Assembly: GCA_965287045.1 (NCBI GenBank)
Contig: OZ336876.1
Coordinates: forward strand, 8,184,001-8,248,000
DNA: 64,000 nt
Direction: 5' to 3'
Source of the DNA: Carcharhinus amblyrhynchos
Lineage: Eukaryota
The position numbers are program-made. Every line of letters begins with the position of its first letter. Within the stretch, counting starts at the first letter, position 1. Shown piece by piece: positions 33,001-54,000 of this stretch.

Positions 33001-36000
33001 CTTACAGTGTAGGAGGCGGTCATTTGGCCTATCGAGCCTGCACTGACCACAACCCCACCCCTATCATCGTAATGCCACATATTTGCCCTGCTTATTCCCC
33101 TGACACTAAGCATCAATTTAACATGACCAATCAACATAACCCATATCTTTGGGCTGTGGAAGGAATTGGAGTATCTGGATGAAATCCATGCAGACATGGA
33201 GGGAACGTGCAAACTCCACTCAGCCACCCAAGGCCAGAATTTACCCGAGAGACACCCCCCCACCCCACCCCAGGCCAGAATTGAACCCGCCTGATGCTGA
33301 GACGCAGCAGCGCTAACCATTGAGCCATGTGCTGTAGTTCAGAAGAAACAAGGTGAGTAATGTATTTTGAAGGTGTATCATGTAAACCAATCTGCAGCCC
33401 ATGTGCAGTATAAATTAACATTTTTTAAAAAAAACGCACGTGTCTGTAGTTCCATCCACAAATCCTCAAACTGTAATTTTAGTGAGCAGATGTGACTGCC
33501 AGTTGTAAAATCAGCCTATTTGTGGTAGGTATGTTGTCTTCCTGTATTCCCTTGAATCAGGAGATTTGTTTTCTTACAAGATAGCTTTAGTTTTAGAATC
33601 CTACAGTGCAGAAGGAGGCCATTTGGCCCATCGATTCTGCACTGACCACAATTTCACCCAGGCCCTATCCACATAACTCATGTATTTACCCTAGCTAGTC
33701 GCCCTGACACTAAGGGGCAATTTGGCATGACCTAACCTGCACATCTTTGGACTTTCACCCAGTGATCAGGCCAGTATTTAAGCCTCAACAAGACTGATTG
33801 CTTCATCATTATCTTATTGCTGTTTGTGGCAGCTTGCTGTGCACGATGTAGCTGCTGCATTTTCTACATTGTCACAAAGTTTAAAGTTTATTCATTACTG
33901 TCACAAGTAGATTTAGATTAACACTGCAATAAAGTTATTGTGAAAATCCCCTAGTTGCCACTTTTTGGCGCCTGTTCGGGTACACTGAGGGAGAATCTAG
34001 CGTGGCCAACGCACCCTAACCAGCACGTCTTTCGGATTTTGGGAGAAAATCGGAACGCCCAGAGGAAACTCACGCAGACATGGGAGAACGGGCAGACTCT
34101 GCACAAAGAATAACCCAAGCCCTGAATCGAACTCAGGTCCCTGGCACTGTGAGGCAGCCGTGCTAACTGCTGTGCTCGCATTTCAATGGTTGTAAAGTGC
34201 TGTAGGATGCCCTGAGGTTATGAAAAGTGCATAAAATTACAAGTCTTTTCCTTACCAACTGTATAGTAGTTAACTGGATTTGGAGGAGCTATTTGTGTTT
34301 GACTCATTACTGTGCCCTTGTTCCACTTTACAAATTAGAATAACAGGATTTCTGTCCTGTAATGTTCTTGGAATCAATTTGTAGTTCCATACTTATTAAA
34401 CAGTACTGCCCTTTACTTTAAAATATTGGAAATGGTGGACAACTTGAAAATGCATTGCAAATGATAAAGATAATTATTAAAAATAATAATTAAAAACCTG
34501 AGTAGGAGTATCAGAACTTCATGCAAATATTAGCTTTTGTACATTTTTAACAATGGGCATTGGTATTAAACACTGTATATTGTGACTGGGAGTTATTATC
34601 ATTCTGAAACTGAAGGCTTTCTACATAACTGAATTCACTGTGTTAAGAGCAAACTATATAAGTAAGTTTACACTATATAAGTATAGTTTATACAGAATTC
34701 CACAGCAGATGGAATCTCATGGTGGGACCCTGAAACTACATAAAAAATCTGGAATGTGGACAGTATAATTAAATTTAATTTGTTAGCCTCAGTAACCAGT
34801 GACTCTGTTTAACTTTCATCCAGTCAGAAAAGTGCAATCCTTCAGCTTAAAGAAAGAAGGAATTCTCGTATCTTTATCACTTTTCACAATCTCAGGACGG
34901 CCAGAAGAACTCTACTGCTAACAAAGTACTTTTTTGATTTGACTTGATTTCTGATTATCATATATATCAATATGCAGTGAAAAGTATTGTTTCTTGTGCA
35001 CTAAACAGACAAAGCATATCATAGCTAGGATGTAGCGAAAGATCAATTTAGTGCAAGGTAAGTCCATTCAAAACTCTGTTGGCAGCAGGGAAGAAGCTGT
35101 TCTTGAGTCGGTTGGTACATGATCTCAGACTTTTGTATGTTTTTCCTGTAGAAGTTGGAAGACAGAATGTCTGGGGTTTGTGGGGTCCTTAATTATGTCG
35201 GCTGCTTTTCTGAGGCAGCAGGAAGCGTTGATGGAGTCAATGGGTGGGAGGCTGATTTGAGTGATGAACTGGGCTTCATTTCACGACCCTTTGTTGTTTC
35301 TTGTGGTCTTGCCAAATTTCCTTAGTCTTCTGAGAAAGTAGAGGTATTGATGGGCGTTCTTAACTACAGCGCTAGCATGGGAATGTACCAGGACAGGTTG
35401 TTGGTGATCTGACACCTAAAAACCTGAAGATCGCAACCATTTCTACTTTGTCTCCGTTGATGTAGATAGGTACGTGTCCTCCACTACACTTCCCAAAGTC
35501 GATGACTATCTCCTTTGTTTTGTGACATTGAGGGAGTGATTATTGTCGTTGCACTAGTTCACCAGATTCTCTATCTCTTTCCTGTACTCCGTCTCATCAT
35601 TGTTTGAGATCCGACCCACTACGGTGGTGTCATCAGCAAACTTGAAAATTGAGTTGGAGGAGAATTTGGTCACACAGTCATAGGTGTATAAGGAGTACAG
35701 TAAGGGGGCTGAGAACACAGCCTTGTGGGGCACCGGTATTGAGGATAATCGTGGAGGAGGTGTTGTTGCCTATCTTTACTGATTGCAATCTGTAGGTTAG
35801 GAAGTTCAGAATCCAGCTGCAGAGAGAGGAGTTGAGCTCCAGGCCACAGAGTAGTTAGTTCACAGAACAGTGAAAGTGACCATGTGTGCACGACAAAACC
35901 TCACAAATAGCAACAACATAACTGGCCAGATGTAATGACTTTTAGTCATTTTGGTTGATAATTATTTGCTGACATAAGGGGTTAGCTCTTGGCTTTTCAA

Positions 36001-51000: not shown

Positions 51001-54000
51001 AATACCCTTTCTTTTAACTTTGTGTTTATTTTCTAAATACCTATTACGACTTCTACAATTTTCTTCTTCGTGCTTCCTTTTAGCTTTCCTTACTTTCTAC
51101 TTCCTATCTATATTTTGTACCATTCACTTGACTTTCTCTTGCATTTGTAATCCTAGAAGCCTTTGTAAAATGGGCAGAGGTAATATTTTTGACCCATTTG
51201 TTAGTCTGTAAAAAATTTATCTCAAAATCTAATGGGCTGATTTCAGCTGTGAAACCTGGTACATGAATGGAGCCCGGCCCAAGGAAAAACTAGTTAGTTT
51301 CTGGCAAAGGTGCAAATCATAGAATCCCTATATGCAGAAGAGGTCATTGGGCCCATCGAATCTGCACCGACCACAATGTCACCCAGGCCTATCTCTATTA
51401 TGGAATTGTTTTAATGTGCCACTTTCATCAGGAGATAGAGTGAATTGAGATTTTTGTAGAATATTGTTGGTTGTTTTATTTAGATTATTATTGATTGTTT
51501 CAGAATGCTGTAAAATTGTTGAGTTAACATGCCCTGGTAGAGGTATGCCACTGAAGGTGGATGGCAGTAATGTTTTCACTCCTGTTAGTCTGTCACTAAA
51601 ACAAAGATCGCCATCAACTTCAGGAAGCGTAGTGGGGGACATGCCCCTGTCTACATCAATGGGGATGAAGTAGAAATAGTTGAGAGTTTCTAGGCGTCCA
51701 GATCATCAACAACCTATTCTGGTTGATGCTATAGTTAAGAAAGCCCACCAACACCTCTACTTTCTGAGGAGGCTGAGGAAATTTGACACATCCACTATGA
51801 CTCATCAATTTTTACAGATGCGCCAGAGAAAGCATCCTTTCCAGATGTATCACAGCTTGGTATGGCACCTGCTCTGACCAAGACAGCAAGAAAGTAGAAA
51901 GGGTTGTGAACATAGCCCAATCCATCATGCAAACCAGCCTCTCATCCATGCTTCCAGCTGCCTTGGTAAAGCAAGCAGCACAAACAAAGACCCCACATAC
52001 CCTGGACATACTCTCTTTCACCTTCTTCAGTCAGGAAAAAGACATAAAAAGCCTGAGATCATGTACCAGCCGACTCAAGAATAGCTTCTTCCCTGCTACC
52101 ATCAGACTTTTGAATGGACCTACCTTGTATTAAATTGATCTTTCTCTACACCCTAACTGTTCCTCTAACACTGCATTCTGCACTACTCTGTGTACAGTAT
52201 GCTTTGTCTGTATAGTGCACAAGAAATAATATTTTCACTGTATACTAACACATGTGACAACAATAAATCAAATCAAATCATAAAAATACTTTGTTAGCAG
52301 CAGGGTGCTTCTGGTCATCCTGAGGTTGTTAAAAGTGATAAAGATATGAAAATCCTTTCTTTAAGCCAAAGGATTGCACTTTTCTGACTGGACAAAAATT
52401 AAGCAGAATCACTGGTTTACTGAGGTTAACAAATTAAACTTAATTATACTGTCCATGATCCAGATTTTTTATGTACAGTTTCAGGGTCCCATTATGAGAT
52501 TCCACCTGCTGTGGAATTCTGTGTAAACTAATATAGTACAAACTTACTTATATAGTTTGCTCTTGTAACACGGAATTCAGGTATGTAGAAAGCCTTCAGT
52601 TTCAGAATGGTAATAACTTCCAGTCACAGTATACAGTGTTTAATACCAATCCCCACTGCTCAAAATGTATAAAAGCTAACATTTGCATGAAGTTCTGATA
52701 CTCCAACTTATGTTTTTAATTATTATCCTTAATAATTGTAACTTCACAATCTTTATCACTTGCAGCCCATTTTCAAGTTGGCTGCCATTTCCAATATTTT
52801 AAAATAAAGGGCAGCAGTGTTTTATAAGTATGGTACTAATACATGTGACAATAAATCAAGTCAAAGCGTGTTTCTTAAAGGATCCATTAACATTGGGAAA
52901 TCATACAAATGGATCTTAAAAGCAGATACAACTTTGTCTTTTAAAAAGCGTTTAGACAGCTGCATGGGTAAGATGGGTATGAGGAATATGGGCCAAACAT
53001 GGGCAACTGGGACTAGCCTAAGGATTAAAAAAGGGTGGCATGGCCAAGTTGGTCCAAAGGGCCTGTTCCATGCTATAAACCTCTATGATTCTATGAACAT
53101 TGTTAGTTGTTTGTTTTGGAACACTGTTGATTGTTTTAGAAAGCTGTGGATTGTCTCCACTGCTGCAGTGGAATTTGTCACAGTTGTCAAAATGTGAGCA
53201 GAATTTTCAGAGCAGGTTGTTGGGTGTTGGGTTGGCCTGAAGCCTCCTCTGTGAAATGGAAGCTCTTAAAAAATTTTTTCAGTTTTGTAATTATACCGCA
53301 TTAACCAACCTGGCAGGGAAAAGCCTCAAGGGAGAGCTGCGTAATTGTAATAAAGTTGACACTTTGTGGTGGAGGAATATGATTTAATGAGCTCCCTCTT
53401 CACTTATTATGATTTTACCCCCTTCCTTTACTTACTTGCCCAGAAGTAGATCCAATACTTGTCTCCTTTCTTATTGAACTAAGAACATGCCAATCCAGAA
53501 GGTAGTCCAGAACATATTTTAAACCCAAACATTTGTTACAATTTGCGTAACCTGTTATAATGGACTGATTTTCTTTCTCTGCCTCCACTTTGAACATGTT
53601 TTCCTCCACCTCCTGATCATTCAAAATTCCTCTCTTCTCCCCCCTTTAACTCCAGCAAGTGAACTTTGCTTTTGTGCTGTTCTGCAGATCCTCCTTGTGC
53701 TCCCATGCTGTAATAGATTTGGGTTGATAACATATCCCCAACTTTTTTCTGTCTTCTGTTTGGACTTAGCTGATTCCCTATTAAGACTGTTGTGTCAGAA
53801 CTCGCTTCACCACCCCACCAGTTCACTTTTTGTCCTGAGTACGTGTATGTTCATGCATGTCAAGCTCAACTGAACATCAGTTCAACAACCCTTTTCTCAT
53901 TTCTCTTTCTCTTGACCTCCCTATTTTTGTGATTTCTCCCTTTACCTTGTTGACACCCTTTTATCCCTTTTGCTTTCCATCACTTTTTCTTTTTGTGCCC

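What the first reader, a model, noticed from the sequence alone, without database searches (positions are those of the whole stretch)
34387..52866. Inverted LINE+flank duplication capped by a second LINE tail: 3' transduction or template-switch chimera
Seen: the minus-strand Rex1-like LINE (35852->34935) plus about 550 bp of its downstream flank (34934->34387) reappears about 17 kb away on the plus strand. The copy consists of a more 5'-truncated LINE (51590-52280, starting near the equivalent of 35526) and the same flank (52281-52833). It ends in an extra 33-nt Rex1 tail (52834-52866) that is absent at the source. Known: 3' transduction is typical of poly(A)-primed L1, whereas tail-recognising LINEs should need their own 3' end. 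Inference: RT primed on a genuine LINE tail and then jumped to a read-through RNA or nearby DNA. That would be a route for tail-dependent LINEs to mobilise host sequence. The pair also brackets exon 3 as a long inverted repeat.
Basis: partly seen in the sequence, partly recalled or inferred. Interest (0 to 1): 0.72.

Follow-up and report, generated by a model that had tools for sequence, protein, structure and literature searches.

The report
Flank copied between two nearby LINEs
About 800 bases (the end of one decayed LINE retrotransposon plus 550 bases of its neighbouring DNA) were copied into the end of a second, separately inserted LINE copy 17 kb away, most likely by ordinary local DNA repair and not by a new way of moving host DNA.

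Summary
The inverted repeat is real. Copy 1 (minus strand, 35527->34382) matches copy 2 (plus strand, 51591->52838). Copy 2 ends in a 33-nt LINE tail (52834-52866) that copy 1 lacks. The 550-bp flank (X) occurs only twice in the window.

The two halves do not share one history. X is 88.7% identical between the copies. The LINE body 5' of about 52032 is 78.5% identical, the same as unrelated copies of this family in the window (72-80%), and shows no sister signal. From 52032 to the tail the two LINEs are sisters, with 8 of 11 informative sites in support. The copies share no indels or frameshifts. No target-site duplication is detectable.

So two independent LINE insertions lie 17 kb apart. Only an ~810-bp tract, the LINE 3' end plus X, was copied from locus 1 into LINE2. 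It rejoined at an interrupted microhomology at the top of the LINE 3' stem-loop.

I favour local DNA-level templated repair (0.45), in which the "extra" tail is LINE2's own end. A reverse-transcriptase template switch is not excluded (0.22). Genome-wide copy number, orthologous sites and "exon 3" could not be checked.

The parts
34935..35854 (-). LINE1: a 5'-truncated, decayed copy of a Rex1-type LINE, covering the C-terminal half of the RT, the 3' UTR and the (AAATCA)n-like tail.
   Evidence: tblastn with salmonid RT proteins maps to 35842->35066. The translation carries stops and frameshifts. The tail was seen.
34387..34934 (-). X, source copy: 548 bp of AT-rich non-coding DNA directly 3' of the LINE1 tail. 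It continues into unique sequence.
   Evidence: There are only two copies in the window. No Rfam or tRNA match.
34382..35149 (-). Inferred donor tract: the last ~215 bp of LINE1 plus X.
   Evidence: The maximum-likelihood change point lies at copy 2 position 52032, which corresponds to copy 1 position 35149.
51590..52031 (+). LINE2, its own part: an independently inserted, 5'-truncated copy of the same LINE family.
   Evidence: tblastn matches start at 51589. There is no homology to copy 1 upstream of that point. Identity to copy 1 is at family background: 117/149 against 72.1-79.9% for other pairs. Quartet counts are 4/5/2.
52032..52280 (+). LINE 3' end in copy 2 that groups with copy 1. It belongs to the copied tract.
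   Evidence: Block 52032-52155 is 110/121 identical (90.9%), like the flank (p = 0.63) and above the cross pairs at 81.4-86.9% (p = 0.059). Quartet sites support c1+c2 at 8 of 11 (P = 0.0088)..
52281..52833 (+). X, derived copy. It is bounded by LINE sequence on both sides.
   Evidence: 478/539 identical to 34934-34387, K2P distance 0.125.
52828..52838 (+). Junction zone with interrupted microhomology (GTATGG-T-ACTA in copy 2). The source locus and the LINE 3' stem-loop both carry GTAT...ACTA here.
   Evidence: Read directly. Homology to copy 1 runs to 52838/34382.
52834..52866 (+). Terminal LINE tail: the loop, the 3' arm of the family's stem-loop, and the short-repeat tail. It is absent at locus 1.
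   Evidence: The stem-loop is defined by well-kept copies at 5868-5915 (-7.8 kcal/mol, z = -2.9) and 8000-8042 (-10.6 kcal/mol, z = -3.9).
52803..52808 (+). AATAAA hexamer ending 25 nt before the end of X. Copy 1 has AGTAAA at the same place.
   Evidence: It is one of 2 AATAAA/ATTAAA sites in the 553 nt of X.
34192..34254 (+). Weak inverted partner of the 5' region of X. It lies outside the copied tract and is present only at locus 1.
   Evidence: nhmmer E = 0.0066. The repeat finder reports a 38-nt arm, 74% complementary.

Best explanation
Shown.
- Two 5'-truncated copies of one stringent-type (Rex1-like) LINE family lie 17 kb apart in opposite orientation, in repeat-rich DNA that is probably from an elasmobranch.
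- Their bodies are no closer to each other than unrelated family copies are.
- An ~810-bp tract is shared at about 88-91% identity and is younger than the LINE insertions. It consists of the last ~250 bp of LINE plus the 550-bp unique flank X.
- In locus 2 this tract sits inside LINE sequence. On the left it merges into the LINE2 body at about 52032. On the right it meets the last 33 nt of a LINE at an interrupted microhomology at the top of the family's 3' stem-loop.

Inferred.
- A break or stalled strand arose near the 3' stem-loop of LINE2.
- The strand used the nearby homologous LINE1 as template and copied through LINE1's end into 550 bp of its flank.
- It then rejoined LINE2's remaining 33-nt end by microhomology. 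This is ectopic gene conversion or SDSA/MMBIR-type templated repair.
- On this reading the 'extra' tail is LINE2's own original terminus, and no retrotransposition of host sequence took place.
For: - Mosaic divergence. X has 61/539 mismatches. Block A (51878-52031) has 32/149 (p = 0.0026 against X) and equals the cross-copy background (p = 0.74). Block B (52032-52155) has 11/121, like X (p = 0.63)..
- In the multiple alignment, block A differs from X with p = 0.0005.
- The maximum-likelihood change point lies at 52032 (81.3% to the left, 88.2% to the right).
- Quartet-informative sites for c1+c2 are 4 of 11 in block A and 8 of 11 in blocks B+C (P = 0.0088).
- Each LINE has private indels and frameshifts and none is shared. 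Examples are 92 nt missing only in copy 1 and 13 nt missing only in copy 2.
- The window holds at least 7 fragments of this family, so two independent copies 17 kb apart are unremarkable.
- The junction shows microhomology and falls inside a hairpin-forming element.
- X has its weak inverted partner only at locus 1, which fits locus 1 as the donor.
- Source and copy lie in cis, 17 kb apart.
- Template switching to nearby templates at microhomology, including between inverted repeats, is an established DNA-level process. For PMC8421209, PMC7954356 and PMC4352052 I saw only the search listing and the start of each abstract.
Against: - The sample sizes are small. The unconstrained change-point test gives only p = 0.066. 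Block B against background gives p = 0.059, and block C (the last 90 nt of the LINE) is uninformative.
- No outgroup copy in the window covers 51591-51785, where identity is 82.8%.
- Higher mutability of the more GC- and CpG-rich LINE, or later conversion by other family copies, could inflate the LINE divergence.
- Normal SDSA should have re-annealed within the homologous LINE tail and so not have retained X. An aberrant resolution has to be assumed.
- Next to X, the tail of copy 2 differs from that of copy 1 at 8 of 24 positions (P = 0.0037 at X's rate). This fits a copied tail poorly unless copy 1's tail mutated in a cluster afterwards.
- An AATAAA lies 25 nt before the end of X, which is what an RNA 3' end would predict.
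- The pair could only have been noticed because both copies lie in one window, so the proximity argument rests on priors.
Confidence: 0.45

Rival explanations
1. Reverse-transcriptase template-switch chimera. Target-primed reverse transcription started on a genuine LINE RNA at or in the tail of LINE2. After about 33 nt, at the top of the 3' stem-loop, it switched by microhomology to an RNA (or DNA) of locus 1. It copied X and about 250 nt of LINE1. The 5' end was then resolved by homology with LINE2.
For: - The architecture, a foreign sequence fused directly to a LINE 3' end, is that of known LINE chimeras. In Magnaporthe there are 33 bipartite and 1 tripartite chimeras made with the MGL LINE (PMC2104539; abstract read).
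- The switch point lies in a structured element and shows microhomology.
- An AATAAA lies 25 nt before the end of X.
- The tail is consensus-like, with 24/24 bases identical to another copy.
- LINE tails are plausible priming targets for a tail-recognising LINE. The stringent-type concept is from passages of PMC3747384.
Against: - No target-site duplication (best match 5 nt, P = 0.87).
- No A-run between X and the tail.
- The source lies only 17 kb away, which needs a local nascent transcript of the minus strand. The strand of any host gene could not be determined.
- All family copies in the window are old, with pairwise identity of about 72-87%, so nothing shows activity at the time of the event.
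- It needs two switches plus a replacement of LINE2's own end.
Confidence: 0.22
2. X, with or without its tail, is a low-copy mobile unit: a tailed non-autonomous retroposon or a LINE subfamily with an extended 3' UTR. It inserted separately next to two LINE tails, or both loci are copies of one composite master.
For: - In locus 2 the layout LINE tail - X - LINE tail is what target-primed insertion of a tailed element into a pre-existing tail would give (inference).
- The LINE bodies look independent.
- A 6-nt GAACTA lies at both outer boundaries of LINE1+X, at 35861-35856 and 34387-34382.
Against: - Copy 1 has no tail.
- X occurs only twice in 64 kb and never alone.
- All 4 other displayed LINE 3' ends lack X.
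- X has no tRNA-like or Rfam feature.
- Both copies share the same tail length and the same tail-X junction.
- The sister signal reaches about 250 bp into the LINE.
- A 6-nt match is within chance: the null mean for the longest match is 5.4 nt.
Confidence: 0.13
3. The whole segment 35527-34382 was duplicated at once, by RNA read-through (true 3' transduction) or by DNA-level inverted duplication. The LINE part then diverged faster, or was later converted by other family copies. The tail was added with the event or independently.
For: - One colinear alignment runs from 51591 to 52838.
- Both copies share the same tail length.
- The unconstrained change-point test is not significant (p = 0.066).
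- The LINE part is richer in GC and CpG than X: 42-43% against 32-34% GC.
Against: - Block A is at family background and shows no sister signal.
- LINE against flank still differs after CpG transitions are removed (p = 0.025).
- No shared defects.
- No target-site duplication.
- An independent 33-nt LINE insertion exactly at the duplication boundary would be a coincidence.
Confidence: 0.15

Closest known systems
Ectopic gene conversion and SDSA/MMBIR-type templated repair between dispersed or inverted repeats. PMC8421209, PMC7954356, PMC4352052 and PMC11293582 were seen only as search listing and start of abstract. The mechanism itself is recalled.
   Same: A nearby homologous repeat serves as template. 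One boundary lies in homology and the other in microhomology. Non-homologous flank is captured. Donor and recipient lie in cis and in inverted orientation.
   Different: This is an old, fixed germline event in a fish-like genome. The recipient break falls in a LINE 3' stem-loop, so the product mimics a retrotransposition chimera. No polymorphic or pre-event allele is available.
LINE reverse-transcriptase template-switch chimeras. The mammalian L1 chimeras are recalled. For the Magnaporthe MGL/Mg-SINE/WEIRD chimeras (PMC2104539) I read the abstract. PMC4476161 and PMC13174262 were seen as listing only.
   Same: A LINE 3' end is fused directly, in the same orientation, to a copy of other sequence. 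The switch occurs at a defined spot in the LINE template.
   Different: The known chimeras have target-site duplications (14 bp in the fungal tripartite case), are dispersed, and recur with abundant RNAs. Here there is no detectable duplication, the source is 17 kb away, and the LINE 5' part is not derived from the source.
L1 3' transduction (recalled; no paper was read for it here).
   Same: A LINE 3' end and its downstream flank appear together at a second site.
   Different: There is no poly(A). The flank is capped by a LINE tail. The LINE body at the second site is not a daughter of the source LINE. The copy is not dispersed.
SINE/LINE pairs with shared 3' tails and stringent-type recognition (PMC3747384, passages read; it lists a Rex1 pair in Nematostella).
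   Same: X plus the tail at 52281-52866 has the layout 'unrelated body + LINE-derived 3' tail' that defines such non-autonomous elements.
   Different: The window shows no amplification (2 copies, and only one has the tail). X has no pol III head.

Membership tests
LINE 3' transduction (L1 type) | The LINE at the new site is a daughter of the source LINE, with the same divergence as the transduced flank. | tested here: not met
   Block A has 32/149 mismatches against 61/539 in the flank (p = 0.0026) and equals the family background (p = 0.74). Quartet counts are 4/5/2..
LINE 3' transduction (L1 type) | A target-site duplication flanks the whole LINE+flank unit. | tested here: not met
   The best exact match around 51540-51600 and 52855-52905 is 5 nt (P = 0.87). 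At this age a short duplication could have decayed.
LINE 3' transduction (L1 type) | The transduced flank ends in the poly(A) or tail used for priming. | tested here: met
   A 33-nt family tail lies directly after X. There is no A-run.
LINE RT template-switch chimera | The 3' part is a LINE 3' terminus, fused directly and in the same orientation to a copy of another template. | tested here: met
   The junction is at 52833/52834, with GTAT..ACTA microhomology.
LINE RT template-switch chimera | The whole chimera is flanked by a target-site duplication. | tested here: not met
LINE RT template-switch chimera | The 5' part derives from an RNA, and similar chimeras recur in the genome. | not testable with these tools
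   No genome or transcriptome of this organism was available. The strand of any host gene could not be found.
Ectopic gene conversion / templated break repair | The recipient repeat existed before the event: outside the tract it is unrelated to the donor beyond family level. | tested here: met
   (block A).
Ectopic gene conversion / templated break repair | There is a discrete tract with a change in relatedness at its boundary. | tested here: inconclusive
   The change point lies at 52032 with permutation p = 0.066. The block and quartet contrasts point the same way, but the site numbers are small.
Ectopic gene conversion / templated break repair | A pre-event allele shows the recipient without the tract. 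| not testable with these tools
   No orthologous or polymorphic sequence was available.
Rex1-type stringent LINE | An RT-bearing ORF whose relatives are of the RT + PF09004 type. | tested here: met
   28 hits among 107 candidates, the best ones salmonid RT proteins with PF00078 + PF09004. 39 hits among 44 candidates. Pfam RVT_1 matches the fragments only below cut-off. That PF09004 marks Rex1 elements is recalled.
Rex1-type stringent LINE | A conserved 3' stem-loop followed by a short tandem-repeat tail. | tested here: met
   Of the 5 LINE 3' ends folded, 2 have a significant stem-loop (z = -2.9 and -3.9) and 3 are decayed. Tails of 1.5 to 2.7 units are seen.
Rex1-type stringent LINE | Placement in the Rex1 clade by RT phylogeny. 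| not tested
   No clade reference set was at hand.

The most novel reading that the evidence does not exclude
A tail-recognising (Rex1-type) reverse transcriptase began on a real LINE tail. At the top of the recognition stem-loop it switched to a local transcript or to DNA of the neighbouring locus. This gave 550 bp of host sequence a functional LINE 3' tail. It would be a caught-in-the-act example of how stringent LINEs mobilise host DNA and seed new tailed non-autonomous elements.
Probability: 0.2. Interest if true: 0.6.

Novelty: new member of a known kind. Interest (0 to 1): 0.3.

Why it matters
If the repair reading is right, this is an ordinary rearrangement that carries a useful warning. 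Templated repair between nearby copies of one LINE family can produce a 'LINE - flank - LINE tail' structure that looks like 3' transduction or a reverse-transcriptase chimera. Surveys for such chimeras should therefore test block-wise relatedness and the distance to the source before counting them. If the reverse-transcriptase reading is right, the locus would show how a stringent LINE can attach its recognition tail to host sequence. That is the proposed first step in the birth of LINE-tailed SINE-like elements. LINE template-switch chimeras as such are already known.

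Tried and rejected
- Target-site duplications. Around copy 2 there is nothing beyond a 5-nt match (P = 0.87). Around LINE1 alone, and around LINE1+X, there are only 6-7-nt matches within chance.
- A decayed tail after X at locus 1: not significant.
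- LINE homology upstream of 51590: none (score 18 against a null mean of 18.3).
- X as a SINE or known RNA. ARAGORN finds 0 genes in the window. Rfam at E up to 0.1 gives 9 matches in 33000-54000, none in X or the LINEs.
- More diverged copies of X in the window: none.
- X as a DNA transposon with terminal inverted repeats. Only short, weak terminal matches were seen by eye, plus a weak inverted partner outside the copied tract. Not pursued.
- The 53-nt direct repeat 51459-51511 / 53095-53147 as a long target-site duplication of the locus 2 complex. It is real (score 51 against a null of 20 +/- 2.5), but it ends about 65-78 nt before the LINE and is T-rich. It is left unexplained.
- Host exons and gene strand. 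Pfam was run on 164 of 167 ORFs of at least 45 aa between the copies. It was also run on 250 of 260 ORFs of at least 58 aa elsewhere. The 10 left out overlap LINE1 or the strands around the CR1-like ORF. The only hits were retroelement domains and one sub-threshold DUF4916.
- Literature searches on Rex1 or UnaL2 with 'transduction' returned nothing relevant. I therefore make no claim that such events are unreported.
No eukaryote genome was available, so genome-wide copy number and orthologous sites stay unchecked.

Full report
**What is there.** The window has no N and is dense with retroelement debris. The best named relatives of its one intact CR1-like ORF (54503-56335, RVT_1 E = 2e-29) are elasmobranch proteins. 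They are from Chiloscyllium punctatum (66% identity), Hypanus sabinus (61%) and Mobula birostris (58%). Birds and turtles reach 43-52%. I therefore take the window for cartilaginous-fish DNA and not for human DNA.

**The repeat.**
- blastn aligns 51879-52838 with 35311-34382 (986 columns, E = 0) and 51591-51788 with 35527-35310.
- 8 of the 13 inverted pairs found in 33000-54500 belong to this pair.
- A global alignment gives 450/541 (83.2%) for the LINE part and 478/539 (88.7%) for the 550-bp flank, which I call X.
- Copy 2 ends in a 33-nt LINE tail (52834-52866). 24 of its bases are identical to the tail of another family copy at 5873-5896.
- Copy 1 has nothing comparable after X.

**The LINE family.** Protein relatives are salmonid reverse-transcriptase proteins carrying PF00078 + PF09004, plus three unnamed close relatives at 54-59% identity. 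tblastn maps copy 1 to 35842->35066 and copy 2 to 51589->52115. The well-kept copies fold into a 3' stem-loop directly before a short-repeat tail: -7.8 kcal/mol with z = -2.9, and -10.6 kcal/mol with z = -3.9. The three other LINE 3' ends folded are decayed. This is the anatomy of a stringent, tail-recognising LINE (concept from passages of PMC3747384). That PF09004 marks Rex1 elements is my recollection, and no clade tree was made.

**Is X a repeat?** Within 64 kb it is not. A profile of the two copies finds only themselves (E = 4.5e-200 and 6e-195). The next hit has E = 0.0066. All four other family 3' ends that I displayed run into unrelated DNA. X has no tRNA-like part and no Rfam match. 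The genome-wide copy number could not be tested, because no eukaryote collection was available.

**The key result: the two halves have different histories.**
- With the pre-specified LINE/flank boundary, the LINE part is more diverged than X. Fisher p = 0.011, and p = 0.025 without CpG transitions. K2P distance is 0.195 against 0.125.
- I used the other family copies in the window as a yardstick (multiple alignment; pairwise re-alignment).
- Block A (51878-52031) is 78.5% identical between the two copies (117/149). Unrelated pairs give 72.1-79.9%. This equals background (p = 0.74) and differs from X (p = 0.0026; p = 0.0005 in the multiple alignment)..
- Block B (52032-52155) is 90.9% identical (110/121). 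That is like X (p = 0.63) and above the cross pairs at 81.4-86.9% (p = 0.059).
- Block C, the last 90 nt, is uninformative.
- Quartet-informative sites show the same picture. 5' of 52032 the three groupings get 4, 5 and 2 sites. 3' of it the grouping copy 1 + copy 2 gets 8 of 11 (P = 0.0088)..
- An unconstrained change-point search puts the break at 52032 (81.3% against 88.2%) but reaches only p = 0.066.
- Each LINE has private indels and frameshifts and none is shared. Copy 1 alone lacks 92 nt. Copy 2 alone lacks 13, 7 and 9+3 nt..
- Against this reading: the numbers are small. No outgroup copy covers 51591-51785. The tail of copy 2 differs from that of copy 1 at 8 of 24 positions next to X (P = 0.0037).

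**Junctions.** On the left the shared tract merges into LINE homology. On the right, X ends in GTATGG followed at the source by A-ACTA. The LINE stem-loop has GTAT..ACTA at its top. Copy 2 reads GTATGG-T-ACTA and then continues as LINE loop, 3' arm and tail. This is an interrupted 4+4-nt microhomology inside a hairpin-forming element.

No target-site duplication brackets copy 2 (best match 5 nt, P = 0.87). An AATAAA ends 25 nt before the end of X. It is one of two such hexamers in X, and copy 1 has AGTAAA at that place. There is no A-run at the junction.

**Interpretation.** The simplest account of all this is as follows.
- Two independent insertions of the same family were already there. The window holds at least seven fragments of the family, so this is unremarkable.
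- A later local event copied about 810 bp from locus 1 into the 3' end of LINE2.
- I favour DNA-level templated repair at 0.45. A break near LINE2's stem-loop invaded the homologous LINE1. The 'extra' tail is then LINE2's own end.
- The main argument beyond the mosaic is that source and copy lie 17 kb apart in cis. A dispersing RNA intermediate would land there only by a very small chance.
- Such template switching to nearby templates, also between inverted repeats, is established. For PMC8421209, PMC7954356, PMC4352052 and PMC11293582 I saw only the listing and the start of each abstract.

**Rivals.**
- A reverse-transcriptase chimera using a local transcript or DNA remains possible (0.22). 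It has precedent in LINE template-switch chimeras (PMC2104539, abstract). It lacks a target-site duplication, needs two switches, and needs minus-strand RNA that I could not show.
- X as a low-copy tailed mobile unit: 0.13.
- One-piece duplication with uneven divergence: 0.15.

**Not verified.**
- 'Exon 3' and the host gene's strand. Pfam scans of 164 of 167 ORFs between the copies and 250 of 260 elsewhere found only retroelement domains.

**Verdict.** The junction is a genuine template-switch junction whose enzyme, DNA polymerase or reverse transcriptase, is undecided. The most likely reading is an ordinary local rearrangement that mimics a retrotransposition chimera.

Noticed in passing
51459-51511 and 53095-53147: A 53-nt T-rich direct repeat (79% identical; score 51 against a null of 20 +/- 2.5) brackets the whole locus 2 complex together with the neighbouring LINE fragment. 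The left copy ends about 65-78 nt before LINE2. Its origin is unknown.
   Followed up: partly
52890-53094 (+): About 25 nt after the terminal Rex1-type tail lies a 5'-truncated 3' fragment of a different LINE type. Its C-terminal ORF end reads ..FKKRLD.. and it ends in a CTCTATGATTCTATGA tail. No other copy was found in the window by blastn.
   Followed up: no
46161-46283: A near-perfect hairpin with 59-nt arms, 98% complementary, and a 5-nt loop. It matches several plant miRNA-precursor models, all well below their gathering scores. Probably a generic palindrome.
   Followed up: no
34944-34975 (-): The stem-loop and tail region of copy 1 carries a cluster of transitions relative to copy 2 and to the other family copies: 8 mismatches in 24 nt (P = 0.0037 at the flank's rate).
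   Followed up: partly
35861-35856 and 34387-34382 (-): The same 6-mer, GAACTA, sits just before the 5' end of LINE1 and exactly where homology with copy 2 ends. This is the position expected for a target-site duplication of LINE1+X as one unit. A 6-nt match is within chance.
   Followed up: partly
34192-34254 (+) versus 34860-34915: A weak inverted repeat lies between the 5' region of X and DNA about 135-195 bp beyond the 3' end of X at locus 1 (nhmmer E = 0.0066; a 38-nt arm, 74% complementary). X may be part of an old element with inverted ends.
   Followed up: partly
54503-56335 (+): An open 611-aa CR1-like reverse-transcriptase ORF (RVT_1 E = 2e-29). 7897 database relatives have E <= 1e-20. 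The closest named ones are from elasmobranchs.
   Followed up: partly
48173-48931 (+): A 253-aa ORF with a sub-threshold GIY-YIG match (E = 0.0014, 19.3 bits against a cut-off of 22.6). Probably a Penelope-like element remnant.
   Followed up: no
about 14500-17200, including the ORF 15176-17194 (+): A GC-rich stretch containing a 673-codon open frame made of proline-rich tandem repeats (translation seen). It has no Pfam match. It may be a minisatellite or CpG-island-like region and not a gene.
   Followed up: no
5333-5626 (-): A 98-aa ORF with a weak DUF4916 match (E = 7.8e-4, 19.5 bits against a cut-off of 27).
   Followed up: no
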